Origin: Patescibacteria group bacterium | GTDB taxonomy: Bacteria > Patescibacteriota > Patescibacteriia > PEXW01 | Direction: 5' to 3' | Assembly (NCBI GenBank): GCA_041671325.1 | Contig: JBAZBR010000001.1 | Coordinates: 153,771 to 217,770 of the forward strand | Length of the DNA stretch: 64,000 nucleotides | Shown: positions 43,162 to 60,184 of the stretch, in pieces | Position numbering within the stretch: the stretch's first letter is position 1 | How the letters are laid out: each line of letters begins with the position of its first letter | The notes under the pieces: generated by a model | Database searches by the model: none | What the model saw: the letters and a program-made list of their open reading frames with translations, nothing else | Told to the model about the DNA's origin: nothing | Program-made: the position numbers and the translations under genes

Positions 43162-43173
43162 AAGATATAATTT

Positions 43174-43425: not shown

Positions 43426-43499
43426 TCCGGGATCGTCTAATGGTAGGACAGCGGCCTTTGAAGCCGTTTATCTTGGTTCGAATCCAGGTCCCGGAGCCA
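43426..43499 (+). tRNA. tRNA-Gln (anticodon TTG)
   Basis: The cloverleaf was folded by hand, with acceptor tccggga/tcccgga, anticodon loop ctTTGaa and T-loop ttcgaat. Confidence 0.8.
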
Positions 43500-45080
43500 A
43501 TGTGCACGAAGCGACCGCTCTGGGTCGTTTTGTGCTGTAGTTGCAAAGGATTTCTTTGGTTCTAACATAGTCATTACTCGCTCTGCATTCTGATCAAGAT
43601 TTTTCACCGCAAACAGGAGAATGTCCAATGAAAGGTGGAGCTTTCCGTCCTTTAAAGAAAAGTTCGAACCTAGCGTTGTAAAAATCTCTTTTTTCACCTC
43701 AAGGCTTCCCGTAGCGAATACGCGCCGTGCTTTCTCTGCAAAGTTGATGCCCCGCTCGGCAATCCCCAGCCAATTTTCAATCCGCTTGTCCGTATCTTTC
43801 AAGAATTCCTGCATACGGTCTTTCTCTTTTAGTAAGGCAACCTTCCTGCCTCGAAACTCCACCTCATCAATCTCACTGTTTGCCCGCATGTCAATGAGGT
43901 TATCAAGCTTCTTCACGCACGATTCGTACTCTCGACGTTGGTTGCCGTAAACACGTTCCCGGTCCACTACTTCAAGCTTGTGCATTTCCCGGAGCCTCGC
44001 AATAGCCCAGTCTCGAAAATCCTCTTTGATTTCTAATTTACCAAGTTCAGTGGCAATCTGCTTTTCCACTTCACCTTCCTCAAGGGACTTTTGGGTGCAG
44101 TTCGGGTACTTCCGCTTCGTGCAGTGGTAGTAAATGTAGTGTTGGACGGTTCCATCAGCGAGGCGTTTCGTTTTCTCTTCAGCCGTGACCATTGCACCGC
44201 ACTCGCCACAGCGGATTGGGCCACGGTAAGGAAAGTCATGCGTCTTTGAGCGCTGGGGTGACGGGCGGCCAAGGAGTTCCTGAATGCGTTCAAACTCCTC
44301 TCGGTTAATCATTGCTTTGTGAATACCTTTATGCCAGTTGCCGCTACCCTTGGGATACTCGAACTCCCCATAGTAGAACGTATTTGTGAAAATGTTGTAG
44401 ATGGAGCTTCGACAAATTGGGGTGCCATAAGTGCCCCTAAGTTTCCACTCATCAGCCGCAATTTGCTGGATGCGTGGCGGAGAGTAGTTACCCGTAAGCA
44501 TGAGATCAAACATCTTTCGCACCAGGCCAAAGCGCTCCGGGTCGGGTGTAATAGTTTTCATGCCTTTGGTCATGTACATTTCGTTTTTATAACCCAGGGG
44601 TGCGGGAGCGGGCAGTACTCCCATTTGTGCTTTTTGAACCAAACCACGCTTCACATCCCTGCCTTTCTTGGCGCTCTCATACTGCGACTGCGAAAGCGCC
44701 AGTTGTAGCATCCAGATACCTTCAGGCGAGTTATTCTCAAAGTGGTAGGTGGCCAGCTTGAGGTCTTTGATGATGCCCTCACGTAACATGTAGGTAATAC
44801 TACTCGCGTCAACTTCATTGCGAGAAAGACGATCTGGATGCCACGCGAGTAAGCCCTGGCGTTCGCCCTTCCGAATACGTTCCAACATCTTGGTAAAAGC
44901 AGGGCGATTATACGGGTGAAAGGCACTGGCCTTGTCCTCAACGAATTCAATATCGAGGTCAGCAAAGACCTCAGTGAGCTTATTCTTTTGCGCAGGGATA
45001 GATAACGCCTGTCGCTCTTTTCCTTCAGAGGACTTACGTACGTAAGCGAAGTATTTAGTTGTTTTGCCGTGTGGATCCAT
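43437..45080 (-). CDS. large serine recombinase (resolvase N-terminal domain, recombinase domain and zinc ribbon). Its 3' end overlaps tRNA-Gln.
   Basis: It has an N-terminal YVRKSS...RQ.LSI catalytic Ser region, a YYHCTKRK...NCTQ zinc-ribbon region and a length of about 547 aa. It is a paralog of 58183..59859. Confidence 0.8.
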   Translation of the reverse strand: MDPHGKTTKYFAYVRKSSEGKERQALSIPAQKNKLTEVFADLDIEFVEDKASAFHPYNRPAFTKMLERIRKGERQGLLAWHPDRLSRNEVDASSITYMLREGIIKDLKLATYHFENNSPEGIWMLQLALSQSQYESAKKGRDVKRGLVQKAQMGVLPAPAPLGYKNEMYMTKGMKTITPDPERFGLVRKMFDLMLTGNYSPPRIQQIAADEWKLRGTYGTPICRSSIYNIFTNTFYYGEFEYPKGSGNWHKGIHKAMINREEFERIQELLGRPSPQRSKTHDFPYRGPIRCGECGAMVTAEEKTKRLADGTVQHYIYYHCTKRKYPNCTQKSLEEGEVEKQIATELGKLEIKEDFRDWAIARLREMHKLEVVDRERVYGNQRREYESCVKKLDNLIDMRANSEIDEVEFRGRKVALLKEKDRMQEFLKDTDKRIENWLGIAERGINFAEKARRVFATGSLEVKKEIFTTLGSNFSLKDGKLHLSLDILLFAVKNLDQNAERVMTMLEPKKSFATTAQNDPERSLRAHWLRDLDSNQDKRLQRPLSYH

Positions 45081-45121
45081 AAACCTTTTAATAGGATAGC
45101 TTAGTTGCGTTATAGCACTTT

Positions 45122-45751
45122 TTATATTTCAAGGTTAGTATAGCTTCTAGACGCCTGTTCGTAGAGCCTATACAGACGTTGTTGTTTTTTTGTGGGCTTT
45201 CCGGCGTAGTATGGGTTTTTTATTTTCTCCTGAAGTTCATACATTTTCTTGTGCATCATAAGAGTATTGAAGAGCGAAAAGTATTTACTACGTCGGTTTT
45301 CATTTCTGGAACTGTAGGTGAGATTGTAACAATGCCGGCAGGCGAAAAAAGTGCCAATTTGGTAGAGAACCCCCACCCGTCGACCGCAGTAATGACCATT
45401 GGAGAAGAATGGGCAACGAAACCAATATCGTTTACCCCCGTATCGGCATACCGTGGTAGTAAGAGGTACCCGACAGTCAAAAGCCTTCTCATCGCCATTG
45501 GGGTCGGTCTGTGCATAGGTTAAAAGTATATAAGCATTTTCACCAAGTGCCGAGACAGCGAGGTGGGTACTACTTTCCTCACCAGTGTAACCGTTGGTCC
45601 AGGTCATGGTCGCTGTTCTCCCGCTGGAAAGAAGGCCATTATGTTTGAGCACGTTAATAGATAGCTTCTTTAACCGATCTGCCTCGATTTTGCGTAAAAT
45701 CGTTATCCTATAATTACCGAAATCATTTGAGATTGGGGTCGGTTGCGGCAT
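45122..45751 (-). CDS. hypothetical Cys-rich (zinc-ribbon-like) protein
   Basis: It is an ORF with CRYGGKRYWFRCP...CRHC and lies between the recombinase and the primase. Confidence 0.45.
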   Translation of the reverse strand: MPQPTPISNDFGNYRITILRKIEADRLKKLSINVLKHNGLLSSGRTATMTWTNGYTGEESSTHLAVSALGENAYILLTYAQTDPNGDEKAFDCRVPLTTTVCRYGGKRYWFRCPFFSNGHYCGRRVGVLYQIGTFFACRHCYNLTYSSRNENRRSKYFSLFNTLMMHKKMYELQEKIKNPYYAGKPTKKQQRLYRLYEQASRSYTNLEI

Positions 45752-47940
45752 TAAAGTAATTTTTCAGTTACATTTACCCCACCCTTCGTCTCACTATTAT
45801 TGCCAGGAGGATTAGCCGTCAAATCGTTGGCGTCTTTACTACCATCAGAATTTTGAAAGTGGGAGGATGGGAAAATCAAGATTTTCCGTTTATCATCGGG
45901 ATCTTGCTCCTGGATGATAAGCCCGGCCGTCTCCAACATTGGCAGTATTTGCTGACGGAGCTGATGCGTGTCCAGCATCCGTCCGTAGACGGCGAAGTGT
46001 TTACTTAGCACCTCTTGGCGGGTAACTCCGACTGTACCTACGACTTTCTCTATTCCGTCTTGCCCTACATTTTTTTCCTCCCAAGCAGGAAAAATTATGT
46101 CTTTATAGAGGTCGTAAATGTAGGGTGGCAAATTGAGTTCCTGGCTTACAGAGATTTTATCCCAGAGCATGAAGGCCGCATCAATATCTTCATTATTAGC
46201 CATGATGGTTGAGTCTGTCTGTTCCCGCCACCAGATATTAAGGAGGGCAAACGCTTTAATAAGGGAGAGAAGTCGTTTGATGTCCCGTTGGTGACGCGGT
46301 TTGAGGAACTGATGATCGCCAAGGAAGCGTTTCTCTATCCTCTCCGGTGATACGATATTTATTTCCTTTGCATTCTCCAGCTTGATGGCACGGATGCGTT
46401 CTTTGAGCAAGATGCGTCCTGGATCCGCCTCTAGCCAGCTCGTGAAGCTTTCGCTGTTTGCTTCTTTGCGAATAACGGCGCTAATACCCTCGTGAATTTT
46501 TTCCTGATTAACCTCTGGCGAGAGTAGAAGAAAGCGGGTTGCTTCTTGCTCATCTATACGGAGTCCCGCGGTACAAAAGATGACTGACGGAAAACCTTTA
46601 ATAATTACAGTCTTGGTTCGGTTGCCACCTTTTTCATTTTTGTCGGTTATTTTGGATTGCATCTCTTTTTCGTCATGGGACAAAAGAGATCGTAATCGCT
46701 CTAGAAGATCGGCATGAGGTTGATCTAGAAAAATGATTATTTTCCTCGATAAATCCACTACGATTGTATTCGTATCCTTGTCAAACTCACCTTGCTCGTG
46801 AAAAAAAGCGTTGGGTGAGCAGTTGCCCAATTTCATAACATCTTGATTTGGAAACAAATTGGAGATTTCCAGTGGGATGTAGCTTTTCCCCGTTGAGGAT
46901 GGTGCGTTGTAACTGATGTTGAATTGGGCGTTTTCGGTGTATGCAGACAATTCACATAAGAACGTGGCGAGCTTGTTTTCTGCGTCGTGTTTAATGGTCA
47001 ACCCAAGCGTTGCAAGGAGCTGATTGACTGTGAGCGGCGTGAACTTGCTAGTATCAATCCGTTCGGGATACGGTTTCGCGTACTTGGAGAATAGGTCCTC
47101 AACCGTGCCATTCAGCTTAGTGAAGTAATCAGTTACATCCCCCCCATCGCCGACCTCCGGCGGAAGGGTGATGATGAATGTTTCTACTTTTCCGCCATCT
47201 TCAACCATTTTTGCGGTTCGCTCTGCGCCCTTTCGACCAGCATTATCGTTGTCGAAGCATACATAAACCTCCTTGAGGTTTTGGATACGTTCTGCCCATT
47301 CTTTATTGAACGTCATTGCCCCATGAGTCGAAGTAACAGCTAAAACACCTTTGGAGATGAGTAAGAGTCTGTCTAGTTCTCCCTCACACACCACCAGAGG
47401 GCTATCTGAAGTTTCTAGAGCTCCCCAGTCATACAGTTGGGCTTCCACCCCACTGGGGTAGGTCATTTTGTCATTCCCAAATGCTGGATCCTGTCGGAGC
47501 TTAAAAAAGACGTAATTCCCGTAGGTATCCTTGATGGGTATGGTAATCCACTGCTTACGGTAGAATTGCCCGTAGCCGAGCTTGTAGGCGTCAATTACAG
47601 CGTCTGTAAGCCCCCGCTCGTGTAGGTATTCACGAATATGAATTGGGAGTGCCTGGTGGTACTTCTCAACCTTGTCTGTAACAGAGTTGATCGTCCGGCG
47701 AGGGCGTGACTCCTCGTCGCCCAGATGTTTGCGGAGGGTTTGGAGATTACCTTGTGCGCCACACTTCTTGCAGTCGTACTGCCCGGTTTCGGTATTGAAG
47801 TACAAGTGCGCCTCTCCGTTCCTGCTATCCTTGTCGCACTCGTTTAATAGGCATTTCGTGATGAGTTCGTTGCCACTCTCGCGGAATGCGATACCCTTCT
47901 GGGCTAGGTACTCGCGGATGGTAATTGTCTGTAGGGTCAT
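45751..47940 (-). CDS. phage/plasmid-type DNA primase-helicase (zinc finger, Toprim and P-loop region)
   Basis: It has an N-terminal CxxC...CxxC zinc finger, a Toprim-like EGELDRLLL...TSTHG region and a Walker-A-like PSSTGKSY motif. It is 729 aa. Confidence 0.6.
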   Translation of the reverse strand: MTLQTITIREYLAQKGIAFRESGNELITKCLLNECDKDSRNGEAHLYFNTETGQYDCKKCGAQGNLQTLRKHLGDEESRPRRTINSVTDKVEKYHQALPIHIREYLHERGLTDAVIDAYKLGYGQFYRKQWITIPIKDTYGNYVFFKLRQDPAFGNDKMTYPSGVEAQLYDWGALETSDSPLVVCEGELDRLLLISKGVLAVTSTHGAMTFNKEWAERIQNLKEVYVCFDNDNAGRKGAERTAKMVEDGGKVETFIITLPPEVGDGGDVTDYFTKLNGTVEDLFSKYAKPYPERIDTSKFTPLTVNQLLATLGLTIKHDAENKLATFLCELSAYTENAQFNISYNAPSSTGKSYIPLEISNLFPNQDVMKLGNCSPNAFFHEQGEFDKDTNTIVVDLSRKIIIFLDQPHADLLERLRSLLSHDEKEMQSKITDKNEKGGNRTKTVIIKGFPSVIFCTAGLRIDEQEATRFLLLSPEVNQEKIHEGISAVIRKEANSESFTSWLEADPGRILLKERIRAIKLENAKEINIVSPERIEKRFLGDHQFLKPRHQRDIKRLLSLIKAFALLNIWWREQTDSTIMANNEDIDAAFMLWDKISVSQELNLPPYIYDLYKDIIFPAWEEKNVGQDGIEKVVGTVGVTRQEVLSKHFAVYGRMLDTHQLRQQILPMLETAGLIIQEQDPDDKRKILIFPSSHFQNSDGSKDANDLTANPPGNNSETKGGVNVTEKLL

Positions 47941-49337: not shown

Positions 49338-49585
49338 TGTCCTGCTTTTCAGTATGATTTTATCAGCTTCAAGACTTTTTTCAAGAGCAAATGCGTTAGC
49401 AGAATAGACAATTTTCGAGCCTAAACCTCACTTCGTGAGGCATGGTACCAAACCCCTTAGTAGATACTGAACCCCGTGTTCAGCGACTCTACTAAGGGTC
49501 ACATTCCGAAAGGGATGTGGGTGGCCGAAAGGTCGCTAGCTGGCGCGGGGTTTTGTGTTTTTACTCTCTTATCAAATCATAAACT

Positions 49586-51283: not shown

Positions 51284-51614
51284 CCACGCTAGAAAGCTAA
51301 TTGGCGACAGTGCGCTTACTGATGATGAAGTTCAGGATATTATGGATAGACTTTACCAACTGGCAGCAACTGGGTTAGATCATTACGTTGCTTATCGTAA
51401 AAACGGAAAGGAGGAAAGTGATGTAGCGCCATTTTTTATAAAAAGGGGAAACGTGTAGTAGGTTAAAAGATTTAGAGCAGCCCTTTCTGCAGAAGGTATG
51501 GCGGTTAGTACGGATTTTTTACGTTTTAAAGTAGTAAGTAACAGGGTGGGGACGCTTGACGACCTGAGCAAATTACGAGAGGATTAAGCCATCAAATTTT
51601 AACCATATACACCT

Positions 51615-52544
51615 ATGGACAACCAACCTCAACCAACAACATCAACTAATAAAGCTCTGTGGATCGTGCTTATTATTGTAGTCCTCGCAATTGCCGGGTA
51701 TGGGATATATACGCTTGTTTCTAATCAAGACAATGAAAATACTAACAATGCCAATACCGCCGTAAACCAGAATACGAATGTGGTTGCTAATTCAAACATT
51801 GCTCTGAATCAGAACACGAATAGCGCCATAAACGGAAATGCGAATCTGAATGTGAATGCCGAGAATACAAATGGTTCGGTTAGCGCTAACCAGAATAGTA
51901 ATACATCCATAGTCAGTTTTACAAAAGGGTCATATGATTATACTGACCAACTGAAGAATTCATTTACCAACGCTACCTATTACATTCGTAAAGCGACCGG
52001 TGAACAGTTTTGTGGTGTAAATGGATCTGGGGTATGTGAATTGGTTCGAGCAGAAACCAATGAGTCGTTCATGGTTGTGGCGAACCTCTTTTTTAAAGAA
52101 ACTCCAAAGACATCTGGTGCGCTCCAGGGTGCATCGCTCCTTACGTTCTCTGATGCTAACACGCTTATCATTAAGTATGCTTCGGGTGACCATGGTGGCA
52201 GCAGTAGTAGCGTATACGCCTATAATCTTAAGACTAAGAATTTGCAACAAAAAATTGTTTTTATTCAAGCGGAATCCAGCACTTCTGGCACATACGGTGT
52301 TGATTACTACCAGATTGAAAAAGATGGAAAGAAGCTAGTTTTTGTGAACAACTCTACATCTACGTATACAACGGTAGGTATATTTACTGTCTCAGGCTCT
52401 ACAGTCACGCCCCTCTCTTCATCTATCACAACGCCTTTTACGGTGGTGTTTGATGTAGCAAAAAATTACCAGAATAATAGAATTTCATTGCTAGTTAATA
52501 ATACTACTCTCACATTTGATTTTTTAACCCTCAGATTCGAGTAG
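51615..52544 (+). CDS. membrane-anchored Asn/Thr-rich low-complexity secreted protein
   Basis: It has an N-terminal TM helix followed by NQNTN-type repeats. Confidence 0.4.
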   Translation: MDNQPQPTTSTNKALWIVLIIVVLAIAGYGIYTLVSNQDNENTNNANTAVNQNTNVVANSNIALNQNTNSAINGNANLNVNAENTNGSVSANQNSNTSIVSFTKGSYDYTDQLKNSFTNATYYIRKATGEQFCGVNGSGVCELVRAETNESFMVVANLFFKETPKTSGALQGASLLTFSDANTLIIKYASGDHGGSSSSVYAYNLKTKNLQQKIVFIQAESSTSGTYGVDYYQIEKDGKKLVFVNNSTSTYTTVGIFTVSGSTVTPLSSSITTPFTVVFDVAKNYQNNRISLLVNNTTLTFDFLTLRFE

Positions 52545-52608
52545 TTACAAATCCAATAACGGACATTCACAACTTAATACTTAACTAAAACCCAAACACA
52601 GGAGGTCA

Positions 52609-55332
52609 GTGATGAAACTGACAAAAGTAATGTGGCTAGTAGTAGTCACAGTTGTTCTCTGGACTGCTGGACTTTCTCTAGCTGCAGAAGGACCGGCGAT
52701 GTTACCGATCTTTGGTAACCACGCAAGGGGCGCCTCAGCAGGTTGGAAGTTCACGGAGTACGCATGTGGGTATCCAAATGGGTGTGTTTATCACCCTGGG
52801 TGGGACTTTAATTTGTCCAATCCAAACGATGCCCATCAGAATGTTTACGCCATTGCGGACGGCACGGTGGTTAGCGCGGCGCCCCATTACCCAACCACAT
52901 GGGGATCCGTAATTATTGAGCATAACATCAATGGACAGCACTTTTACTCACAGTATGGTCACTGTGAAGAAGTATTTGTTATTGCTAACCAGCAAGTGCA
53001 TAAGGGGAATCGAATTGCAAAGGTTGGCGACATTGGCGCACAAGGTGCGTACCATTTGCACTGGGAGATAAGAACAACCTCTCATGAGAACCCGGCTCTT
53101 CTGGATTACTGGACTGATAATCTAAAGAATCAAGCAACGGTTGAATCTTGGTACCGTAATCCTGAACGCATGATTGTCCGTCTGGACATTGATGCCGAAC
53201 GACAATCACAAGGCGAAGGGAACTATGGCAGTCTGGTGCAGGACAACGACTGGTTTATTCCCCTGAACGCCGATGCTCCGTACAACGGTGACAACACCCC
53301 GAAGACTTGTTACGTCCAAAGATGGTCGGGTGGCACGTTCGGCCCCTGTGGCGTTATCTATGATGCTCTCGGTGGAACTCGTACCGCCTATACAGTTCGT
53401 AACGGTTTCTGGGGTACGTGGAACGGTGCGGGTGGCCCCTCGAGCTCCATTGGCATACCCATAACCAATGAGTACAACAATGGCGGCTCAACTGCCAGAC
53501 AGGATTTTCAGAAAGGATACCTGTATTGGAACGGTAGTTCAGTGTCAGTCAATTACTATCCAAACTGTTCGCCTGGTTGGACCTCATCAGGCTGGAACAA
53601 CCAGTACTCGTATCTCTTCGCTCGGGCGTATGAACGCAACGGTGCGCGAAATGCGCTCGGTGAGGCAATTGGGCAGGTAAATGGCTGGAACGGTTTCTTT
53701 CGTCAGAATTTCACTGACGGTCGCTGTGTAATATACGACCCGAACAACGCTGTGGACAATTCTGCAGCGACGAACGAGGCGTACTACCTCACTGGCAACT
53801 TCTACACCGTGTATTTCCAAGAGTACCCGAGCGCCTGGCAAACCATCGGCCCCCCGACGCGCGATCGCGAGGGAAATGTGCAGTACTTTAAGACTGGCCG
53901 GATGGTGGAAGAGGCGAACGGCGTAATCCGCGTGTACAACGCGAGTGGCCAGCAAGTGTGGACGAACTACGTTGGGGGTGCTGGTGGCGGAGGAGACCCG
54001 TACGTCGACCTCGCCGTTCTGTACGATTACGGCGGGTGCCAGACGCGAGCCCATACGTTCCTGTCTACGGGTAGTACGTTCAACTACCAAGGTAACGAAG
54101 GCTGGGCGATCCTGAACAACTATTGCTTGCAGTATGTTGTGCGGAGCGTATCTGGCGACTTCGACGGTAATGGCGTTGCCGATGTGGCCATGCTTTACCA
54201 ATACGGCGAGTGTAGCGTCGGCATCCACGTGCTCCTCTCTACGGGTGCAAGCTTCACATACCAACCATACTGGTGGCAGTCGAGTGGGTTCTGTCCATAC
54301 GCCATCAGGGGTATGGTTGCCGGTGACTTCAATGGCGATGGTAAGGATGATATTGCCACGGTCTACGACTTCGGGAACAACCAAATCCGCATCTTCGTCT
54401 TGCTCTCTACAGGCAGTGGCTTCGCGTACCAGCCAGGAAACGAAGCCTGGTTGATTAACTACAGCTACGATGGGAGTGCGGTGAAGTTCGTGAACGCTGG
54501 TGATTTGAACGCCGACGGTAAAGACGACATTGTCATGGCCTACCGTTACGGCCCCTCAAGTACAGCGTTGCACGTCTTCCTTTCCACGGGTTCCAGCTTC
54601 ACATATCAGTCCTTCTGGTTCTGGGCTGATGGCTGGTTCGCCCTGGACGCCATGAAGTTCATGGAGATGGGTGACCTGAATGGCGATGGGAAGTGCGACG
54701 TGGTTATGGCCTGTCGGTACGGGTCGAATGAAATGGCTCTGCTCACATTCCTCTCCACCGGTACTGGCTTTAACTACCAGGGCTGGTGGTACCACAACGT
54801 CTCCTACAGCCTAGATGCTGTGAAATACATGGCGGTTGGGGATATCACTGGTGATGGCCTGGCCGACGTAGCTATGTCTTACCTCTATAGTGAGTATTCC
54901 GGTGCCATCCACTGTTTTACTTCCAGTGGTTCGGGCTTCAACTACTCGCCGTGGTGGTGGCAGAGTACGAGCTACGGCTGGGACCATACGAACGGTTTCT
55001 TCCTTGGGAAGTTCGACGGCAGCGGTACGCCAAAAGTGCTGGCAGGTGATCAGGAATGTTCACTCCCGCTGATGTTCCAGCTTAACCAGAATTACCCGAA
55101 CCCATTTAACCCGGCAACAGTAATTGCCTATACGTTACCAAGCGCCACGCACGTAACCCTAGAGGTGTACAACGTCTTGGGTCAGCGTGTTACGACTTTG
55201 GTAGATGAACAGCAAACAGCAGGTGAGCATACCGCTACTTGGGATGCTAACCCCTACTCTTCCGGCGTGTACTTCTATCGTCTCCGAGCTGGAGAAGCCA
55301 CGGAGACGAAAAAGATGCTCTTGCTGAAATGA
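52609..55332 (+). CDS. secreted M23-family peptidase fused to FG-GAP/VCBS-type repeats and a T9SS-type C-terminal sorting domain (Por_Secre_tail-like). It has high GC (about 52%).
   Basis: It has a signal peptide and M23 motifs (HPGWDF...D, HLHWE). Repeated GDFDGNGVADV / GDFNGDGKDDI / GDLNADGKDDI motifs are present. The C-terminal NYPNPFNPAT...GVYFYRL beta-sandwich tail is typical of T9SS cargo. Confidence 0.65.
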   Translation: MMKLTKVMWLVVVTVVLWTAGLSLAAEGPAMLPIFGNHARGASAGWKFTEYACGYPNGCVYHPGWDFNLSNPNDAHQNVYAIADGTVVSAAPHYPTTWGSVIIEHNINGQHFYSQYGHCEEVFVIANQQVHKGNRIAKVGDIGAQGAYHLHWEIRTTSHENPALLDYWTDNLKNQATVESWYRNPERMIVRLDIDAERQSQGEGNYGSLVQDNDWFIPLNADAPYNGDNTPKTCYVQRWSGGTFGPCGVIYDALGGTRTAYTVRNGFWGTWNGAGGPSSSIGIPITNEYNNGGSTARQDFQKGYLYWNGSSVSVNYYPNCSPGWTSSGWNNQYSYLFARAYERNGARNALGEAIGQVNGWNGFFRQNFTDGRCVIYDPNNAVDNSAATNEAYYLTGNFYTVYFQEYPSAWQTIGPPTRDREGNVQYFKTGRMVEEANGVIRVYNASGQQVWTNYVGGAGGGGDPYVDLAVLYDYGGCQTRAHTFLSTGSTFNYQGNEGWAILNNYCLQYVVRSVSGDFDGNGVADVAMLYQYGECSVGIHVLLSTGASFTYQPYWWQSSGFCPYAIRGMVAGDFNGDGKDDIATVYDFGNNQIRIFVLLSTGSGFAYQPGNEAWLINYSYDGSAVKFVNAGDLNADGKDDIVMAYRYGPSSTALHVFLSTGSSFTYQSFWFWADGWFALDAMKFMEMGDLNGDGKCDVVMACRYGSNEMALLTFLSTGTGFNYQGWWYHNVSYSLDAVKYMAVGDITGDGLADVAMSYLYSEYSGAIHCFTSSGSGFNYSPWWWQSTSYGWDHTNGFFLGKFDGSGTPKVLAGDQECSLPLMFQLNQNYPNPFNPATVIAYTLPSATHVTLEVYNVLGQRVTTLVDEQQTAGEHTATWDANPYSSGVYFYRLRAGEATETKKMLLLK

Positions 55333-55499
55333 TCTTAACCTTAAACATCAACACGCCCTGCGGACTATCCGTGGGGCGTTTTTCAATTCAGAAATTTAAA
55401 ATTAGCAATAGTGAGTTGCGGTAATCACGAAAATTTTTTATAGTAAAGACTATTTTTAATGGATCTTGCCTCCCAAATATAACTCATTAGGTGTAAGAT

Positions 55500-56432
55500 T
55501 TGATCATGCGAAAGCCCCTAGAAAAACTTAGAAAAATTGGCCTAAAGCATGCTCTTAGCACGCGTCTTTACGGAATCGTTGGTGTTTTTATTGTATTATC
55601 CTTCGCCATCCCCCAGTTATCACTAGCGTCAACAATTACCGCTCGTTCTTTGGCACTCAAGCTTACCGTACACGCAGAGGATGGAGCCGGGTATGTTCGT
55701 TCTGCATTTAAGCTATGGATTGATGCTGACCATGACGGTTGTGATACGCGACAGGAGGTATTGATTGTTGAATCAAAGGTTAAACCTAAGCTTGGAGCCA
55801 AATGTAAAATTATCTCGGGCAAGTGGATATCCTGGTATGACAACAAAACCTGGACGAAACCTGCTGACGTTGCTATTGATCATGTTGTCCCTCTTAAGGA
55901 AGCCTGGGATTCTGGGGCAAAATTTTGGACAGCCGCAACCCGCGAGCGTTATGCAAACGATTTAAGTTTCAGTTGGGGACTTGATGCCATAACTAGCAAA
56001 GTTAACTCCAGTAAGGGTGACAAAGACCCCGCTCAGTGGCTCCCTCCACTCACTTCCGCACGGTGTACCTATGCTATCCATTGGGTTGCAATTAAATACC
56101 GATGGAAGCTTACCGTTGACTCTGCTGAGCAAAAAAAGTTACTATCCATCCTCTCTGGTACCTGTGGCTCACGTACACTTACAGTACCAACTGTAATTGC
56201 TACAAGTACCACGATAAATCAAAATACCAATGCAAACACTAATACAATCAACACCAGTGCGCCTATTATTGCCCCGGTCCAGACGCCCGCACCAACACCA
56301 GTAGTTGTTACTCCAGTACCTAACACGAGTTCCTGTTGCAAAGTTTGTACAAGCGGGCAAGCTTGTGGCGATAGCTGTATTTCTTGGTCTTACACATGCC
56401 ATAAGGGCGTAGGCTGCGCCTGCCAAGGATAA
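55500..56432 (+). CDS. secreted HNH-like nuclease-fold protein (GmrSD C-terminal / DUF1524-like) with a Cys-rich C-terminus
   Basis: It has a signal/TM anchor, IDHVVPLKEAW...N...SKGDKDP (a His-Me finger-like motif) and a C-terminal CCKVCTSGQACGDSC. Confidence 0.45.
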   Translation: MIMRKPLEKLRKIGLKHALSTRLYGIVGVFIVLSFAIPQLSLASTITARSLALKLTVHAEDGAGYVRSAFKLWIDADHDGCDTRQEVLIVESKVKPKLGAKCKIISGKWISWYDNKTWTKPADVAIDHVVPLKEAWDSGAKFWTAATRERYANDLSFSWGLDAITSKVNSSKGDKDPAQWLPPLTSARCTYAIHWVAIKYRWKLTVDSAEQKKLLSILSGTCGSRTLTVPTVIATSTTINQNTNANTNTINTSAPIIAPVQTPAPTPVVVTPVPNTSSCCKVCTSGQACGDSCISWSYTCHKGVGCACQG

Positions 56433-56441
56433 ATCATTCCA

Positions 56442-56990
56442 ATGTCAATGAAATGGAACAAAGCTAGTACCCTAGTGGTTTTACTTTTTCTTGTAACAGT
56501 AACTCTAAATTTTTATTATGGTTCTGTTTTATATTCAAAAGTATTAGGGAAGCAGTACCAATTCACTATTGGCAAGGAATGTTTTAAATCACGTCCTGAT
56601 TGCGAAGCAAAGTATTTTCAAGGTTATTTAGATAAAATTGGTTCTCTTACCAATGAGAGCAGAACCTATTTTTCAAACATCATTATTCAAAACAACCAAA
56701 AAGGATATACAGGAAATTGTCCTTGTCCTTACGATAGTGATAGTGCGGGGAATAGTTGTGGAGGGAGATCTAGTTACTCAAAAAATGGACGAATATCATT
56801 TTGCTATGACTCCGATGTACCAGCTGAACAGATTGTGGACTTAAAGAGCTCGATGATTGCTCAGGAAAGAAAAAATCTTGATGATGCTATACAAAAAGAT
56901 ATTAACATTTATCACGAACAGTACACATTGCTTATAGTAGTAATTATATATAGTGTGATATTTTTCTACTTTAAAAATAAAAAATATTGA
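56442..56990 (+). CDS. hypothetical membrane protein with a Cys-rich central region
   Basis: It is an ORF with N- and C-terminal TM helices. Confidence 0.35.
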   Translation: MSMKWNKASTLVVLLFLVTVTLNFYYGSVLYSKVLGKQYQFTIGKECFKSRPDCEAKYFQGYLDKIGSLTNESRTYFSNIIIQNNQKGYTGNCPCPYDSDSAGNSCGGRSSYSKNGRISFCYDSDVPAEQIVDLKSSMIAQERKNLDDAIQKDINIYHEQYTLLIVVIIYSVIFFYFKNKKY

Positions 56991-57179
56991 AGGAATCTCC
57001 CTAGACACTGACACTTTAACGTTAAATAGAATTTAGCCATGATGTTGCTTTAAAAATTTTTTATTTTTTTCTAACAAACGAGGCGTATACTAGAGAAAAA
57101 TTTGGAGACGGCTCTTTATTTCAGGTGGGTAGGGGGGGGCGGTAATAAAACTTCACAAAATGAGTAGTATTGAGTATAC

Positions 57180-57716
57180 TTGAGTTGCTTTATGAATATC
57201 GCAATAACGGGCAATAGAAGAATATCCGAGACAATTCTTTACTTGCTCAAACGAGCTGATGAGAGAGGGGTACACAACCTCTCGAAATTTCAAATTATGA
57301 AACTTCTATACCTAATTGAGGTAGAGTATAGGAGATATCTTGGGAAAGGATTCTTTGAGACGCCAACATTTACAAGATTTGATCGAGGACCAATTCTTAA
57401 TGAAGCATATCCAATTATTGATACATTAATTTCAAGTGGTAAGGTCAAACTAACAATTCAAAGAAACCCAGGGTATGGACACGATAGGCATAGCCATTCT
57501 TTAAACAATCCAGATATTAAGGTGAGCCTTAGAGATGGAGAAAAAATATTCTTGAATAGTATTATTGATAGCTACATTGAATTAACACAAGCAAAATTGA
57601 GTAAAATTGCATACTCAACCGAACCAATGAAGAAAGTTCTGGCTAAAGAAAAAGGGGGAGAAATTTCTAAAGAAGCATTAGACATGGGACTAGTAAAAAA
57701 ACAAAGCTTTGGCTAA
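57180..57716 (+). CDS. Panacea-domain (DUF4065 / SocA-like) protein, a candidate antitoxin-associated protein
   Basis: It has the Panacea-like core KLLYLIEVEYRRYLGKGFFETPTFTRFDRGPI. Confidence 0.5.
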   Translation: MSCFMNIAITGNRRISETILYLLKRADERGVHNLSKFQIMKLLYLIEVEYRRYLGKGFFETPTFTRFDRGPILNEAYPIIDTLISSGKVKLTIQRNPGYGHDRHSHSLNNPDIKVSLRDGEKIFLNSIIDSYIELTQAKLSKIAYSTEPMKKVLAKEKGGEISKEALDMGLVKKQSFG

Positions 57717-58134
57717 TCCACCGGGATCAATACTTCATTTTACTAAGTACGTTTTCCTGGATAATAATGAGGCCAGGAACCATTTCGCTTTGCTTCTTAT
57801 CCCAGAGGACAAGACTAGTTTTACTAGAAGCGTTTGGTGTTGCGTCATTTCGTCAAACATTGATTACACCACTGGAATGAAAAAGTATTGTGTAAGGTTG
57901 GGAGAACGCTACCCATGTTTTTTACACCGTACTTACGTACACACTCACAAAATTGATTTACAGGAGAAAATTAATCTTCATAGAAACAACCCACGTGGGC
58001 TATTACGTGGAAGTGATCTCCGTCTTGTATTTCGAAAACTTCAAAGTTATATCTCTTCAAAAACATCATTAGAACCTGAAATCAAAGCCACCATATTCAG
58101 AGAGTGGCAGTTGCATTATGGGACCCTGCTTTGA
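57709..58134 (+). CDS. hypothetical protein (a possible partner of the Panacea-domain protein)
   Basis: It is an ORF overlapping the previous gene by 8 nt. Confidence 0.35.
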   Translation: MANPPGSILHFTKYVFLDNNEARNHFALLLIPEDKTSFTRSVWCCVISSNIDYTTGMKKYCVRLGERYPCFLHRTYVHTHKIDLQEKINLHRNNPRGLLRGSDLRLVFRKLQSYISSKTSLEPEIKATIFREWQLHYGTLL

Positions 58135-58182
58135 AGATGAGTTTTGTCCTGATTAAATAGTGAGTACTGGGGTGGGGTAAAT

Positions 58183-59859
58183 TTACAAAGTAATTGTTTG
58201 GTAGCAAAAGTTTGATTTTCCGCTTAAAGCTGCGTTTCTAACGTCGTCCAACAATCGGAGCCAGTTAGAAATGCCGCTCCCGACAGGGGAGGTTTTTGCT
58301 TTAGCGTAGCTCAAGAATTGGGGTTCGAACCGCAATGTTTTGACCAATGACATCTGCACGGCAGTTTGAATATCCCTCAGTGGTTTTTGCGGCTTTATTT
58401 GCAGAATTCCATTAAGAAGAACGAGGTTCGAACCTGTATAACACAGTATTGCCCGTTTGTCCTCAAGGGTGCCATTGTCGAACTGACCTTTCGCGGTATG
58501 AGCAAAGTCAAAGGCATCTTCGCAGGCCTTTAATACATGTTCGAAGCGAGCATCACTATCATTGAGAAGTTCCTTCAGTCGGAATTGTTCTTGCTCAAGG
58601 TCGGACTTCTTCGCTAGGTATTCATCATCATTGAGAAGACCACGCAAGCGCATGTTAACCAATTCTCCAAGTTCCTTTCTGCCTGCCTCAAAACGTCGAT
58701 GCAAAGAATTAAGAGTGGCACTGTCGGCCTTGCGTTCGTCATCATGAAGTTCTTTTAGGATTTCAATAGTCCAATCTCGAATTTCTCGGCTGATCGTGAG
58801 ACTGCCCAAGAAATCGGATATCTGTATTTCCAATGCGGCACGCTCAATTACGCGTTGGGTGCAGTTGACCGAACGCTTTCGTTTTGTACAATGATAGTAA
58901 ATGTACGTACGTCCGTTGCGGTTCGTTTTATGCTCGGCCGTGATAGCAGCGCCGCATTCCCCGCACTTTATCATTCCAGTGAATGCAAAATTATGTTGTT
59001 TCGGTCGAGGCCGGCTTGAAAGCCCCAGTATTTCCTGCACACGGTCGTATTCAGATTTAGAAATCATTGGTTGATGAGAACCAGTGAAGAGTTCGTTGTT
59101 GTAGAGAATAGCTCCATAGTAAAACGGATTTGTAAATATCCGGTAGATTGTCGAATATTGCACTGGACCGCCGCCCATTCGGACAAATTTGCGGGTACGA
59201 AGTGCAAGTTGATCTGTGGCAATCTGAAGCACTTTCCTTGGGGTAAAGCTTCCAGTTATCATCATATCCCACATCTTGCGAACTAAAGGAAACCGGACCG
59301 GATCTTTGATCACCGTATGTGTATTGCGGTCATTTAGATAACCCAAAGGCGGCATTCCTGGCATCCAACCTTGGGCGATTTTCGCCCGGAGGCCGCGTTT
59401 GACGTTGTCAGAGAGATCATCGACGTACTTTTTGGCCATGCCGAATTCAAGTTGCATCCAAAATTTGTCATTACCCGTATTCAGAAATGAACGCTGAGGA
59501 GTGTGGATGACTTTTAGCTTTTGTTCTTCCATCGCCCAGATGACGGCACCGCCATCAACCGGATTTCTGGCCAGGCGGTCAAGCTTCCAGCAGACAACCT
59601 GGTCGATTATTCCCTTTTGGACCAAGGCGAATAGTTGATTAAAGATCGGTCGGCCCGGAGATTTGGCCGATCGGGATTCCGTGAAGACTTTTTCAATGAC
59701 AAGTCCATCGTTTTCTGCAAAGGCCTTCAATTCGCGGACCTGAGATTCAATAGACAATATCTGTCGATCCTCAGATTCGCTCGATTTTCTAGCATAGATA
59801 ATAGTTTTGGACATATGGCTAATGTGGTTCATTATTAACCCTACTCCGAACTGCCCCAT
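58183..59859 (-). CDS. large serine recombinase (second paralog)
   Basis: It has IIYARKSSESEDRQ.LSIESQ with the catalytic Ser, the same architecture and zinc ribbon (YYHCTKRKRSVNCTQ) as 43437..45080. The likely start is MSKTIIY. Confidence 0.8.
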   Translation of the reverse strand: MGQFGVGLIMNHISHMSKTIIYARKSSESEDRQILSIESQVRELKAFAENDGLVIEKVFTESRSAKSPGRPIFNQLFALVQKGIIDQVVCWKLDRLARNPVDGGAVIWAMEEQKLKVIHTPQRSFLNTGNDKFWMQLEFGMAKKYVDDLSDNVKRGLRAKIAQGWMPGMPPLGYLNDRNTHTVIKDPVRFPLVRKMWDMMITGSFTPRKVLQIATDQLALRTRKFVRMGGGPVQYSTIYRIFTNPFYYGAILYNNELFTGSHQPMISKSEYDRVQEILGLSSRPRPKQHNFAFTGMIKCGECGAAITAEHKTNRNGRTYIYYHCTKRKRSVNCTQRVIERAALEIQISDFLGSLTISREIRDWTIEILKELHDDERKADSATLNSLHRRFEAGRKELGELVNMRLRGLLNDDEYLAKKSDLEQEQFRLKELLNDSDARFEHVLKACEDAFDFAHTAKGQFDNGTLEDKRAILCYTGSNLVLLNGILQIKPQKPLRDIQTAVQMSLVKTLRFEPQFLSYAKAKTSPVGSGISNWLRLLDDVRNAALSGKSNFCYQTITL

Positions 59860-59889
59860 AGGGGCAACCGAGAAAACGTTCGAACCCGT

Positions 59890-60123: not shown

Positions 60124-60184
60124 TTCCTTGGGTCATCCTTGTTTTTATCCACAGCGGGTTGCCTAGAGTGGCAATTGCAGGCAT

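What the first reader, a model, noticed from the sequence alone, without database searches (positions are those of the whole stretch)
52609..56432. High-GC foreign block encoding an M23/FG-GAP protein with a T9SS-type C-terminal sorting domain inside a genome that otherwise looks CPR-like
The 907-aa protein ends in an NPFNPAT...GVYFYRL beta-sandwich tail of about 80 aa, typical of Por/type IX secretion cargo. T9SS is a Bacteroidota/FCB-group outer-membrane system and would not be expected in a small-genome Patescibacteria-like organism. The gene and the following DUF1524-like nuclease are about 52% GC against roughly 38-40% elsewhere. Either this is a recent horizontal acquisition whose sorting signal is non-functional or repurposed, or the contig is chimeric.
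Basis: partly seen in the sequence, partly recalled or inferred. Interest (0 to 1): 0.55.

Follow-up and report, generated by a model that had tools for sequence, protein, structure and literature searches.

The report
Secretion-tagged wall hydrolase in ultra-small bacteria
A cell-wall-cutting enzyme in an ultra-small CPR (Patescibacteria) bacterium carries an intact, strongly conserved type IX secretion sorting tag, although these bacteria are thought to lack the outer membrane and machinery that read it, and the gene is swapped among CPR genomes as part of a mobile two-gene cassette.

Summary
ORF 52609-55332 (more likely ATG 52612, 906 aa) encodes a signal peptide, an M23 peptidase with a complete active site, an LGFP-like wall-binding module, an FG-GAP beta-propeller, a disordered linker and a type A T9SS C-terminal domain (TIGR04183 57.6 bits against cutoff 23; PF18962 43.8 against 27). 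Its GC (0.528; GC3 0.60) is the highest in the window. The DUF1524 gene is not part of the block: its GC3 is 0.40 and it lies in a separate insertion.

Chimerism is very unlikely. The identical gene is recovered on contigs of 494, 496 and 618 kb, the same genome holds a second CTD-bearing paralog, and about ten other Patescibacteria genomes carry the family next to core genes.

The gene forms a cassette with an upstream membrane-anchored, Asn-rich ORF. The cassette sits in serine-recombinase islands or next to tRNA genes and is reshuffled domain by domain among CPR lineages.

The tag is not decaying. dN/dS is about 0.06-0.09, and motifs B, D and E, thought to contact the T9SS, are conserved. 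"Non-functional" is therefore rejected and "repurposed" is the best reading, but what reads the tag in a monoderm is unknown. I found no paper discussing this.

The parts
51569..52599 (+). Recently exchanged tract holding the partner gene. ORF 51615-52544 (309 aa) has a short N-terminal tail, one TM helix (about res 14-35), an Asn-rich low-complexity linker and a beta-rich C-terminal domain. The tract also includes a 46-nt leader and the intergenic spacer.
   Evidence: An equivalent TM + Asn-rich ORF lies directly upstream of the peptidase in almost every related locus. It has no Pfam or PADLOC hit. It is 95% identical in amino acids, with pS 0.108, to L037, whose core genes are saturated (pS 0.84-0.98). 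The tract of about 96% nt identity has sharp edges at about 51570 and about 52600.
52600..52605 (+). Shine-Dalgarno sequence AGGAGG of the peptidase gene
   Evidence: Read directly from the sequence. The spacing fits ATG 52612, not GTG 52609.
52609..55332 (+). Peptidase gene: 907 aa from GTG 52609, most likely 906 aa from ATG 52612
52609..52686 (+). Sec-type signal peptide (MMKLTKVMWLVVVTVVLWTAGLSLAA|EG)
   Evidence: Read directly from the sequence. Hydrophobic N-termini align across homologs and AF2 gives a helix at 2-20. The NCBI and JGI start calls (877 and 839 aa) cut it off.
52792..53082 (+). M23 (LytM/lysostaphin-type) metallopeptidase head with the full HxxxD (H62, D66), H118 and HxH (H149, H151) set
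   Evidence: PF01551 scores 60.8 bits. PDB sequence hits include lytic endopeptidase 8s3m, LytM and ShyA, and Foldseek hits include LytM, EnvC and DipM. The residues were read from the sequence. H151 and D66 are nearly invariant in A3.
53164..53964 (+). Central conserved module (res about 186-452), LGFP-repeat-like and putatively cell-wall binding
   Evidence: This is the most conserved region of the family (invariant P284, Y289, R297, Q298, D299, F300 and others). Pfam LGFP scores 19.4 bits, below the cutoff of 22. Foldseek matches the C. glutamicum mycoloyltransferase A C-terminal LGFP domain, 6swz at E 3.8e-7 and 6sx4. pLDDT is mostly about 79-93.
54007..55008 (+). FG-GAP/VCBS beta-propeller (res 467-800), lectin-like
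   Evidence: PF01839 and PF13517 score about 70 bits. AF2 gives repeated four-strand blades at pLDDT about 90. The best PDB match is UmbA4 of the Streptomyces umbrella toxin particle, solved bound to 'TUA' (9oee_A: phmmer 86 bits; Foldseek E 2.7e-20). Internal DNA repeats are listed (D1, D2).
55024..55092 (+). Disordered linker (res 806-828) that tethers the CTD
   Evidence: pLDDT is below 50 over 806-828.
55093..55329 (+). T9SS type A C-terminal domain (res 829-907): Ig-like beta-sandwich with motif B PNPF, motif D GVYFYR and motif E KKMLLLK
   Evidence: TIGR04183 57.6 bits against 23; PF18962 43.8 against 27. The AF2 model has pLDDT 92.8. Foldseek hits T9SS substrate CTDs 8glk_D, 8gl6_D and 8glj_D, plus the PorU, PorZ and mirolase CTDs. 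Motifs are conserved across 17 family members. dN/dS is 0.06-0.09.
55353..55389 (+). Intrinsic terminator (12-bp stem, 8 GC pairs, T-run) marking the right edge of the cassette
   Evidence: The sequence is conserved in L006 (86%) and L037.
55395..58156 (+). Separate insertion that is not part of the high-GC block: secreted DUF1524/GmrSD_C nuclease 55500-56432, ORF 56442-56990, SocA/Panacea antitoxin-like gene 57180-57716 and overlapping ORF 57709-58134
   Evidence: Pfam. GC3 is 0.26-0.40. The segment is absent between the terminator and the recombinase remnant in L006 and absent in L037. There are no PADLOC hits.
58183..59859 (-). Large serine recombinase 2 (558 aa), the recombinase type that accompanies the cassette in other genomes
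   Evidence: Resolvase + Recombinase + Zn_ribbon_recom. It is 60%, 51%, 40-45% and 36% identical to the recombinases adjacent to the cassette in L004, L003, L011 and L013. A remnant of its 3' end follows the cassette in L006.
43426..47940 (-). Left part of the island: tRNA-Gln (43426-43499, + strand), large serine recombinase 1 (43437-45080, -; its 3' end overlaps the tRNA on the opposite strand), ORF 45122-45751 and a Toprim primase-like gene 45751-47940
   Evidence: In L006 the tRNA-Gln after FtsX is followed directly by the cassette.

Best explanation
This is a genuine, intact accessory gene of a Patescibacteria (CPR) genome, not an assembly artefact. SHOWN: it encodes a Sec-signal-bearing modular cell-wall hydrolase. 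The modules are an M23 endopeptidase head with a complete zinc site, an LGFP-like wall-binding module, an UmbA-like FG-GAP lectin propeller, a flexible linker and a canonical T9SS type A CTD. It forms a two-gene cassette with an upstream membrane-anchored, Asn-rich protein. The cassette sits in large-serine-recombinase islands or next to tRNA genes and occupies different sites in related genomes. It is rebuilt by recombination at domain boundaries: heads swap between M23 subtypes and CHAP, the propeller swaps with a second LGFP-like module, and the partner gene is exchanged on its own. The CTD is of the FCB-group class, but in CPR it is under purifying selection as strong as that on FtsE, including the surface motifs thought to contact T9SS subunits. 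INFERRED: the protein is exported by Sec across the single CPR membrane. It acts outside the cell on peptidoglycan, most likely that of a host or competitor cell recognised through the two glycan- or wall-binding modules. The CTD, derived from an FCB-group T9SS cargo, has been co-opted in CPR for a T9SS-independent role such as surface retention or binding. The upstream protein may serve as an anchor, inhibitor or immunity partner. The high GC is a property of the gene family and is sharpened here by a recombination breakpoint at about 52.6 kb. It does not mark a fresh import from Bacteroidota.
For: Architecture. Authenticity: the identical protein comes from assemblies with 494-, 496- and 618-kb contigs, and L036 reproduces island and flanks. 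Paralog P0004 lies on the same 618-kb contig and in an independent Logan assembly. Family members sit among core genes in other Patescibacteria: FtsEX, L10 and L12 in L006-8, and the dcw cluster in L009. In the GTDB species scan, 10 of 22 loci are labelled Patescibacteria and 5 more are unclassified, three of those on 0.57-0.88-Mb or smaller CPR-sized contigs. Mobility: homologous recombinases are adjacent in L003, L004/5, L011 and L013, with a remnant in L006, and there is a shared island backbone. The cassette follows tRNA-Trp in L037 but lies in the tRNA-Gln island here. Mosaicism: the nearest relative differs by domain, heads swap between M23 and CHAP, and the partner gene has dS 0.12 against saturated core genes, with sharp tract edges. 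Selection on the CTD: pN 0.086-0.087 against pS 0.55-0.64, with conserved PNPF, G.YFYR and K..LLK; the importance of these motifs is described in PMC10202324. GC as a family trait: the gene exceeds its flanks at 23 of 23 loci, and in 53%-GC L037 the outlier is the partner gene. CPR lack an outer membrane (proposed): 10.1101/2025.01.22.634366. No T9SS component was found in the window.
Against: Absence of T9SS and of an outer membrane was checked only in 64 kb plus a few 20-kb loci, not in the whole 618-kb genome. The conserved CTD residues are exactly those expected for T9SS recognition, which fits continued use as a signal at least as well as a generic structural role. Two full-length members are labelled Ignavibacteria and Zixibacteria and share island genes with CPR-type loci, so part of the selection on the CTD could act in diderm hosts. 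No expression, localisation or activity data exist. Synonymous sites are saturated for most comparisons, so dN/dS values are approximate. Taxon labels are MAG-based. The association between partner and head subtype is only partial, and the immunity or anchor role is speculative.
Confidence: 0.6

Rival explanations
1. Shuttle cassette. The island moves between diderm FCB-group bacteria (Ignavibacteria, Zixibacteria) and CPR bacteria. The CTD is kept intact by selection in the diderm hosts, where a T9SS exports the hydrolase, and in CPR cells it is a neutral passenger.
For: Full-length members occur in MAGs labelled Ignavibacteria (L011, 42%) and Zixibacteria (L013, 38%) with the same partner gene and recombinases. 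L013 and L004 share RM genes at 70-75% identity. The nearest non-family CTDs are all FCB-group. The T9SS-contact motifs are conserved.
Against: Most members, and all the closest ones, are in CPR-type contigs. Copies are fixed among core genes without a recombinase (L001, L006-8, L009, L037). One CPR genome holds two diverged paralogs, both with an intact CTD. CTD dN/dS is about 0.06-0.09 between CPR-resident copies. The FCB labels rest on MAG binning of island DNA, which is error-prone.
Confidence: 0.15
2. Recent one-off import from a Bacteroidota/FCB donor whose sorting tag is now dead weight.
For: GC and GC3 are the highest in the window. The CTD is of the FCB class. The gene lies in a recombinase island.
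Against: The closest relatives are CPR. The CTD is under strong purifying selection. The family is GC-rich relative to its flanks at every locus, including the long-resident paralog. The domains have different nearest relatives, all within the CPR-associated family.
Confidence: 0.06
3. Housekeeping division hydrolase. The M23/CHAP protein is the peptidoglycan hydrolase controlled by FtsEX in these CPR bacteria, analogous to EnvC or PcsB, and the other modules only position it at the septum.
For: The cassette lies downstream of ftsE-ftsX in the window and in L006-8 and beside the dcw cluster in L009. FtsEX partners in other bacteria have M23-like or CHAP domains (established knowledge).
Against: A tRNA gene, and here an 8-kb mobile segment, separates it from ftsX. 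In L037 and L001 it lies elsewhere. The model shows no coiled-coil FtsX-binding region. Distribution is sporadic: 22 loci among 185,579 species genomes. It travels with recombinases, and its heads are swapped.
Confidence: 0.07
4. Chimeric contig or mis-binned fragment: the block belongs to another organism.
For: There is a compositional step at about 52.6 kb. A T9SS tag is unexpected in CPR.
Against: The same gene is on record from several assemblies of 0.49-0.62 Mb. The GC step coincides with a natural recombination breakpoint seen against L037. The terminator and recombinase-remnant junctions are conserved in L006. The family recurs in many CPR genomes and in independent assemblies.
Confidence: 0.03

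Closest known systems
T9SS type A CTD cargo proteins of Bacteroidota and the FCB group (for example gingipain RgpB, F. johnsoniae NucA, T9SS-dependent M36/M6-like metalloproteases)
   Same: It has an N-terminal Sec signal, an enzymatic or adhesive passenger, a flexible linker and a C-terminal 80-aa Ig-like domain that matches TIGR04183/PF18962 above threshold with motifs B, D and E. The fold matches CTDs solved in complex with the translocon.
   Different: The host is a Patescibacteria genome of about 0.6 Mb, for which no outer membrane or T9SS is expected, and none was seen in the DNA available. The passenger combines actinobacterial-type wall-binding modules (LGFP, UmbA-like propeller) with the FCB-type tag. 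The literature states that CTD distribution tracks T9SS presence (PMC10202324).
LytM/lysostaphin-type M23 peptidoglycan endopeptidases
   Same: PF01551 is present with the HxxxD, H and HxH catalytic set, so it is predicted active, unlike the degenerate EnvC/NlpD LytM domains.
   Different: It is far larger and carries three extra extracellular modules. In sister proteins the head is interchangeable with CHAP.
UmbA lectin subunits of Streptomyces umbrella toxin particles (PDB 9oee)
   Same: The FG-GAP propeller is the best sequence and fold match. In UmbA4 the propeller binds a cell-wall glycopolymer of the target cell, suggesting a target-recognition role here.
   Different: There is no Umb particle context (no UmbB or UmbC, no trypsin-like domain). 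Here the propeller is fused directly to the lytic enzyme.
LGFP-repeat C-terminal domain of Corynebacterium glutamicum mycoloyltransferase A (PS1/cMytA; PDB 6swz)
   Same: The central module has a fold-level match and a weak Pfam LGFP match. In cMytA this domain anchors the protein to the cell wall.
   Different: Sequence similarity is below the Pfam cutoff, and its binding specificity in CPR is unknown.
Polymorphic toxin / effector-immunity cassettes
   Same: It has a conserved delivery or binding scaffold with interchangeable catalytic heads, a small, variable, membrane-anchored partner gene next to it, a location in mobile islands and recombination at module boundaries.
   Different: The variable enzyme is N-terminal and the partner is upstream. 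No immunity function is shown, and the association between head and partner is only partial.
Large-serine-recombinase integrative islands
   Same: Recombinases of 547-558 aa with Resolvase, Recombinase and Zn-ribbon domains flank the island. A primase-like gene, toxin-antitoxin-like genes and nuclease cargo are present, and the island is next to a tRNA.
   Different: No att repeats were found. The two recombinases are only 36% identical, suggesting tandem or decayed elements.

Membership tests
T9SS type A CTD cargo | The C-terminal domain matches TIGR04183 / PF18962 above the curated cutoff | tested here: met
   TIGR04183 scores 57.6 bits against 23. PF18962 scores 43.8 bits against 27.
T9SS type A CTD cargo | Conserved motifs B, D and E, including the C-terminal lysines, at the extreme C-terminus | tested here: met
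   PNPF, GVYFYR and KKMLLLK-COOH are present. P830, N831, P832, G886, Y888 and K902 are invariant in A1. The motif definitions come from PMC10202324.
T9SS type A CTD cargo | Ig-like beta-sandwich fold of the CTD | tested here: met
   The AF2 model has pLDDT 92.8 with six long strands plus short N-terminal ones. Foldseek hits T9SS substrate CTDs (8glk_D at TMt 0.75), but E-values are only about 1e-3 and generic Ig domains score similarly.
T9SS type A CTD cargo | N-terminal Sec signal peptide | tested here: met
   The sequence begins MMKLTKVMWLVVVTVVLWTAGLSLAA|EG. It aligns with hydrophobic N-termini of homologs and is helical in the model. No dedicated signal-peptide predictor was available.
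T9SS type A CTD cargo | T9SS core and attachment machinery (SprA/Sov, PorV, PorU, PorZ, PorK-N) encoded in the same genome | tested here: inconclusive
   None was found among the ORFs of the 64-kb window that were scanned or among the genes listed for L001 and L036 on the same contig. About 530 kb of that contig could not be read.
T9SS type A CTD cargo | Diderm envelope with an outer membrane and A-LPS as the attachment substrate | not testable with these tools
   [quoted passage not shown] No envelope genes could be surveyed genome-wide.
T9SS type A CTD cargo | The CTD is recognised by the translocon and cleaved by PorU | not testable with these tools
   This needs proteomics or a heterologous secretion assay.
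M23 peptidase (active LytM-type) | PF01551 above cutoff, plus zinc ligands HxxxD and HxH and the catalytic histidines | tested here: met
   PF01551 scores 60.8 bits against 28.7. H62, D66, H118, H149 and H151 were read from the sequence. There are PDB hits to active M23 enzymes.
FG-GAP / VCBS beta-propeller | Repeated FG-GAP units that fold into a propeller | tested here: met
   PF01839 scores 69.9 bits and PF13517 69.8 bits. The model shows repeated blades over 467-800 at pLDDT about 90. There are matches to 9oee_A and to integrin alpha headpieces.
LGFP repeat domain | PF08310 above cutoff | tested here: not met
   It scores 19.4 bits against a cutoff of 22. Only fold-level similarity to 6swz and 6sx4 supports it (E about 3e-7). 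I describe it as LGFP-like, not as a member.
Large-serine-recombinase integrative element | Recombinase with Resolvase, Recombinase and Zn_ribbon_recom domains | tested here: met
Large-serine-recombinase integrative element | Identifiable att sites or flanking repeats that delimit the element | tested here: not met
   No convincing flanking repeat was found in 42800-61200. The only exact repeat is a 21-nt tRNA-Gln fragment 334 nt upstream of the tRNA.
Effector-immunity (polymorphic toxin) cassette | Interchangeable catalytic domain on a conserved scaffold, with an adjacent variable partner gene | tested here: met
   Heads are M23 subtypes or CHAP. A partner ORF is present in almost all loci and has variable C-terminal domains.
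Effector-immunity (polymorphic toxin) cassette | The partner type co-varies with the catalytic head type, and the partner neutralises the enzyme | tested here: inconclusive
   Three of 7 close-head pairs share partner C-terminal domains, against 2 of 164 other pairs. The window's partner differs from those of L011 and L012 despite 53-59% head identity, yet it is 95% identical in L037, where the head is 76% identical. Neutralisation cannot be tested here.

The most novel reading that the evidence does not exclude
The CTD is still a working recognition signal in CPR biology, read in one of two ways. Either a so-far unrecognised sorting or anchoring pathway of the monoderm CPR envelope reads it, or surface-exposed T9SS components (the PorV shuttle and PorU sortase) of a diderm FCB-group host read it. 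In the second case the epibiont would dock, or even covalently plant, its peptidoglycan hydrolase on the host surface. This would explain why exactly the T9SS-contact motifs B, D and E stay invariant in genomes that should have no T9SS.
Probability: 0.12. Interest if true: 0.85.

Novelty: new variant of a known kind. Interest (0 to 1): 0.55.

Why it matters
T9SS sorting domains are treated as diagnostic of a T9SS, and their distribution is said to track the machinery (PMC10202324). Here a canonical type A CTD is kept under strong purifying selection on a mobile cell-wall hydrolase in Patescibacteria, which are thought to be monoderm and have genomes of about 0.6 Mb. Three consequences follow.

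1. Automatic "T9SS cargo" annotations, and taxonomic or contamination filters built on them, can mislead in CPR genomes.
2. It is a concrete case of a secretion signal co-opted across envelope types, or still being read by something unknown.
3. It identifies a candidate host-attack or competition enzyme of CPR epibionts. The enzyme has recognisable targeting modules (LGFP-like, UmbA-like lectin propeller) and a partner gene that is exchanged on very recent timescales.

All of this can be tested with heterologous secretion, peptidoglycan digestion and binding assays. In the searchable literature I found no paper that links T9SS CTDs with CPR.

Tried and rejected
- **Exact look-ups.** The 907-aa, 877-aa (P0001) and 839-aa (P0075) versions were not on record. 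Only the 906-aa ENA call P0076 worked. It turned out to be the same sequence as the window (100% over 21,389 bp), so it is not independent evidence by itself.
- **att sites.** The repeat search over 42800-61200 found no convincing island-flanking repeats.
- **Effector-immunity co-variation.** The naive Fisher test was not significant because all M23 heads cross-hit. At a stricter head threshold there is an association, but it can be explained by shared ancestry, so I did not adopt it as evidence.
- **Phage or plasmid origin.** IMG/VR gave only CTD-only matches. PLSDB gave only FG-GAP matches in Streptomyces plasmids.
- **Defence annotation.** PADLOC found nothing meaningful for the partner gene or the inserted genes.
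- **CTD-only deep search.** It returned mostly short fragments. It is useful for the taxon labels of the nearest CTDs but not for counting CPR against FCB.
- **FtsEX-regulated hydrolase idea.** I considered and downgraded it; see the rival explanations.
- **GC as proof of a foreign donor.** Rejected, because the family is GC-rich relative to its flanks at 23 of 23 loci and the cassette is internally heterogeneous in GC in both a 42% and a 53% GC host.
- **Literature.** Searches for Patescibacteria/CPR with T9SS, type IX secretion, Por_Secre_tail or TIGR04183 found no relevant paper.

Full report
**1. The observation.** The Shine-Dalgarno AGGAGG at 52600-52605 is spaced for the ATG at 52612, and the ENA gene call of the same sequence is 906 aa, so 906 aa is the likelier product.
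- Pfam finds Peptidase_M23 (res 62-158, 60.8 bits), FG-GAP and FG-GAP_3 (about 70 bits) and Por_Secre_tail (res 829-903, 43.8 bits against a cutoff of 27).
- The compositional anomaly is real but narrower than claimed. The peptidase gene has GC 0.528 and GC3 0.602, the highest of 55 ORFs (z = 2.5 and 2.7). The DUF1524/GmrSD_C gene has GC 0.462 and a host-like GC3 of 0.399.
- The rest of the window looks like a Patescibacteria genome: F1Fo ATP synthase, MetRS, RF1/PrmC, S2/Tsf, DivIC, PBP, FtsEX, a VirD4-type coupling protein, a DGR and a heliorhodopsin. No T9SS component appears among the ORFs scanned.
- NCBI labels the identical protein 'Patescibacteria group bacterium'.

**2. Not a chimera.**
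- The identical protein is on record from two NCBI MAG accessions (longest contig 496,123 bp), a JGI contig of 494,396 bp and an ENA contig of 618,411 bp.
- The ENA locus L036 reproduces the whole island and both flanks and is 100% identical to window 42612-64000. It is therefore the same sequence rather than independent proof. The different contig lengths do indicate separate assemblies.
- The same 618-kb contig carries a second, 52%-identical paralog with the same architecture and an intact CTD (P0004). That paralog was also recovered in an independent Logan assembly from another run.
- Related genes lie among core genes in other Patescibacteria: after FtsEX and tRNA-Gln and before YceG, L10 and L12 in L006-L008 (three assemblies), and beside the dcw cluster in L009.
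- A scan of one genome per GTDB species found 22 loci. Ten are labelled Patescibacteria (Parcubacteria, Kerfeldbacteria, Saccharibacteria and unclassified), five are unclassified 'bacterium' (some on 0.57-0.88-Mb contigs), two are FCB-labelled (Ignavibacteria, Zixibacteria), two come from one 'Gammaproteobacteria' MAG, and the remainder match only the LGFP-like part.
- I could not check read pairs or coverage.

**3. Anatomy of the protein.** The full-length AlphaFold model (pLDDT 78.6) shows the following layout:

| Residues | Feature |
|---|---|
| 2-20 | N-terminal helix (signal peptide) |
| about 60-155 | M23 domain |
| 186-452 | well-folded central module |
| 467-800 | beta-propeller (pLDDT about 90) |
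| 806-828 | disordered linker |
| 836-905 | C-terminal beta-sandwich |

- The M23 head has the complete HxxxD (H62, D66), H118 and HxH (H149, H151) set. It matches active lytic endopeptidases in the PDB.
- The central module is the most conserved part of the family. It is LGFP-like: Pfam scores 19.4 bits, below the cutoff, and Foldseek matches the LGFP wall-anchoring domain of C. glutamicum mycoloyltransferase A, 6swz at E 3.8e-7.
- The propeller's best match, by both sequence (86 bits) and fold (E 2.7e-20), is UmbA4, the lectin subunit of Streptomyces umbrella toxin particles. That structure was solved bound to 'TUA', which I read as teichuronic acid, a target-cell wall polymer.
- The CTD modelled alone reaches pLDDT 92.8. 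It matches T9SS substrate CTDs caught in the translocon (8glk_D, 8gl6_D, 8glj_D) and the CTDs of PorU, PorZ and mirolase. E-values are only about 1e-3 and generic Ig domains score alike, so the fold is consistent but not diagnostic.

**4. A two-gene cassette.** In almost every locus the peptidase gene is preceded by a small ORF with the same layout: a short tail, one TM helix, an Asn-rich linker and a variable beta-rich C-terminal domain. In the window this is 51615-52544 (309 aa). A strong terminator at 55353-55379 closes the pair and is conserved in L006 and L037. Relative to those relatives, 55395-58156 (DUF1524 nuclease, an unknown ORF, and a SocA/Panacea-like pair) is an extra insertion.

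**5. Mobility.**
- The cassette lies in a roughly 16-kb island. FtsX is followed by a GIY-YIG ORF, tRNA-Gln, serine recombinase 1, a Toprim primase-like gene, a LOOT RNA, a double-REC regulator, the cassette, the insertion and serine recombinase 2. Core genes (NIF3, PNP) then resume.
- Recombinase 2 is 60%, 51%, 40-45% and 36% identical to recombinases immediately adjacent to the cassette in L004/5, L003, L011 and L013. L006 keeps a remnant of its 3' end right after the terminator.
- L003, L004, L011 and L013 also share a small tyrosine-recombinase-like gene, HaeII-type RM and Vsr genes (up to 70-75% identity) and Replic_Relax.
- In L037, a genome whose core genes are 59-72% identical to the window's in amino acids with saturated synonymous sites, the cassette sits 74 nt after tRNA-Trp with no recombinase.
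- I found no att repeats.

**6. Mosaic evolution and the GC step.**
- Each domain has a different nearest relative. The head is closest to L011/L012 (59-73%), the central module to L006/L003/L004 (66-69%), the propeller to L003/L004 (73-74%; L006 and L037 have a second LGFP-like module instead), and the CTD to L006/L037 (86-87%).
- Heads are M23 subtypes or CHAP.
- Against L037, the partner gene is 95% identical in amino acids with pS 0.108, while the adjoining peptidase has pS 0.77 and core genes 0.84-0.98. The tract of about 96% identity has sharp edges at about 51570 and about 52600.
- The peptidase is GC-richer than its flanks at all 23 loci examined (+0.02 to +0.20), including the long-resident paralog. 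In 53%-GC L037 the outlier is the 39%-GC partner gene.
- High GC is thus a trait of the gene family, not a marker of a recent Bacteroidota donor.

**7. The tag.**
- Outside the family, the nearest named CTDs (53-67% identity) are from Ignavibacteriales, Balneolaceae, Zixibacteria, Calditrichia and Bacteroidota. The tag is the FCB-group class and was presumably acquired from such a lineage.
- It is not decaying. Window against L006 gives 87% amino-acid identity with pN 0.086 and pS 0.64. Window against L037 gives 86% with pN 0.087 and pS 0.55. That is a dN/dS of about 0.06-0.09, comparable to FtsE.
- The invariant positions are motif B (PNPF), motif D (G.YFYR) and the motif E lysines (K..LLK). 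The T9SS effector review describes these as surface-exposed and likely contacts for T9SS subunits, with the last 13 residues required for secretion. It also states that T9SS is restricted to Bacteroidota and that CTD distribution tracks the core genes (PMC10202324).
- CPR are proposed to lack an outer membrane (10.1101/2025.01.22.634366).
- Additional CTD-bearing ORFs occur in CPR loci, for example L009 18846-20723. Only one occurs in this window.

**8. Interpretation.**
- Shown: this is an authentic CPR accessory gene for a secreted, modular, probably active peptidoglycan endopeptidase. It carries two wall- or glycan-binding modules and a conserved T9SS-type CTD, and it is part of a mobile, recombining two-gene cassette.
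- Inferred: it is exported by Sec across a single membrane and acts on peptidoglycan outside the cell. The target is most likely a host or competitor recognised by the LGFP-like and UmbA-like modules. Peptidase and lysozyme homologs are reported as essential for epibiotic growth of a cultured CPR bacterium.
- Inferred: the CTD has been co-opted for a T9SS-independent role such as surface retention or binding, and the upstream protein is an anchor, inhibitor or immunity partner.
- The main rival is that the cassette shuttles between diderm FCB bacteria and CPR, with the tag selected only in the former. The FCB-labelled members and the conserved contact motifs favour this rival. CPR-fixed copies, two paralogs in one CPR genome and the CPR majority argue against it.
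- A bolder reading I cannot exclude is that the tag is still read, either by an unknown CPR pathway or by PorV/PorU on the surface of an FCB host.

**9. Novelty.** I found no paper in the searchable library connecting T9SS CTDs with CPR or Patescibacteria, although automatic annotations such as 'T9SS C-terminal target domain-containing protein [Candidatus Parcubacteria bacterium]' exist. I rate it a new variant of a known kind: a canonical T9SS cargo tag maintained in a lineage without the expected machinery, on a mobile hydrolase cassette.

**10. Limits.**
- The whole genome was not scanned for T9SS or outer-membrane genes.
- No read-level check was possible.
- Taxon labels are MAG-based.
- dS is saturated in most comparisons.
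- No functional data exist.

Noticed in passing
window 5851-8481: A diversity-generating retroelement. The 3' end of ORF 5851-6462 (no Pfam hit, GC3 0.58) at 6320-6456 repeats at 6879-7015 (137 nt, 89% identity; a VR/TR pair). It is followed by an RVT_1 reverse transcriptase at 7375-8481.
   Followed up: partly
window 43069-43499: A partial duplicate of the 5' half of tRNA-Gln lies at 43069-43125, interrupted by a 22-nt hairpin. It includes an exact 21-nt repeat (43105-43125 = 43439-43459). A 65-aa GIY-YIG ORF (43174-43371, 44.8 bits) sits between it and the intact tRNA-Gln (43426-43499). The 3' end of serine recombinase 1 overlaps the tRNA on the opposite strand.
   Followed up: partly
window 49418-49537: A LOOT RNA motif (Rfam RF03000, 84.1 bits against a gathering score of 46.4) lies inside the island, between the Toprim-gene block and the response regulator.
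   Followed up: no
window 18993-19781: A heliorhodopsin gene (PF18761, 327 bits) in a CPR genome, next to a small single-REC gene at 19962-20330.
   Followed up: no
window 57180-58134: A SocA/Panacea-domain gene (57180-57716) overlaps by 8 nt a 141-aa ORF with no family hit (57709-58134). The layout is that of a Panacea-type toxin-antitoxin pair. There was no PADLOC hit.
   Followed up: partly
window 55500-56432: The DUF1524/GmrSD_C protein has an N-terminal signal or TM segment and a Cys-rich C-terminal tail (…CCKVCTSGQACGDSCISWSYTCHKGVGCACQG). It looks like a secreted nuclease rather than a cytoplasmic restriction enzyme.
   Followed up: no
window 50438-51283: A response regulator made of two receiver domains with no output domain lies immediately upstream of the cassette. 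It is also present in L036.
   Followed up: no
window 52609-52700 (public gene calls P0001, P0075): The NCBI (877 aa) and JGI (839 aa) gene calls for this protein start downstream and remove the signal peptide. Annotation-based secretome predictions would therefore miss it.
   Followed up: yes
L037 11001-13627: In the related genome the peptidase is split into 378-aa and 497-aa ORFs by a frameshift within the central module. This is either a pseudogene or an assembly error. The same first ORF is seen in a second assembly, L038.
   Followed up: partly
L001 10001-12730 (same 618-kb contig as the window, about 250 kb away): A second paralog (P0004, 52% identity) has its own upstream TM/Asn-rich ORF, no recombinase nearby and GC 0.49 against flanks of 0.40. 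The genome keeps two CTD-tagged hydrolase cassettes.
   Followed up: partly
L032-L035 (IMG/VR contigs): Four viral contigs encode proteins whose C-terminal 90-115 residues match this CTD at 46-51% identity. T9SS-type CTDs therefore also occur on predicted phage contigs.
   Followed up: no
window 21566-24115: A VirD4/TraG-like T4SS coupling protein (849 aa), typical of the CPR monoderm-type T4SS. Its ortholog in L037 is 72% identical.
   Followed up: no
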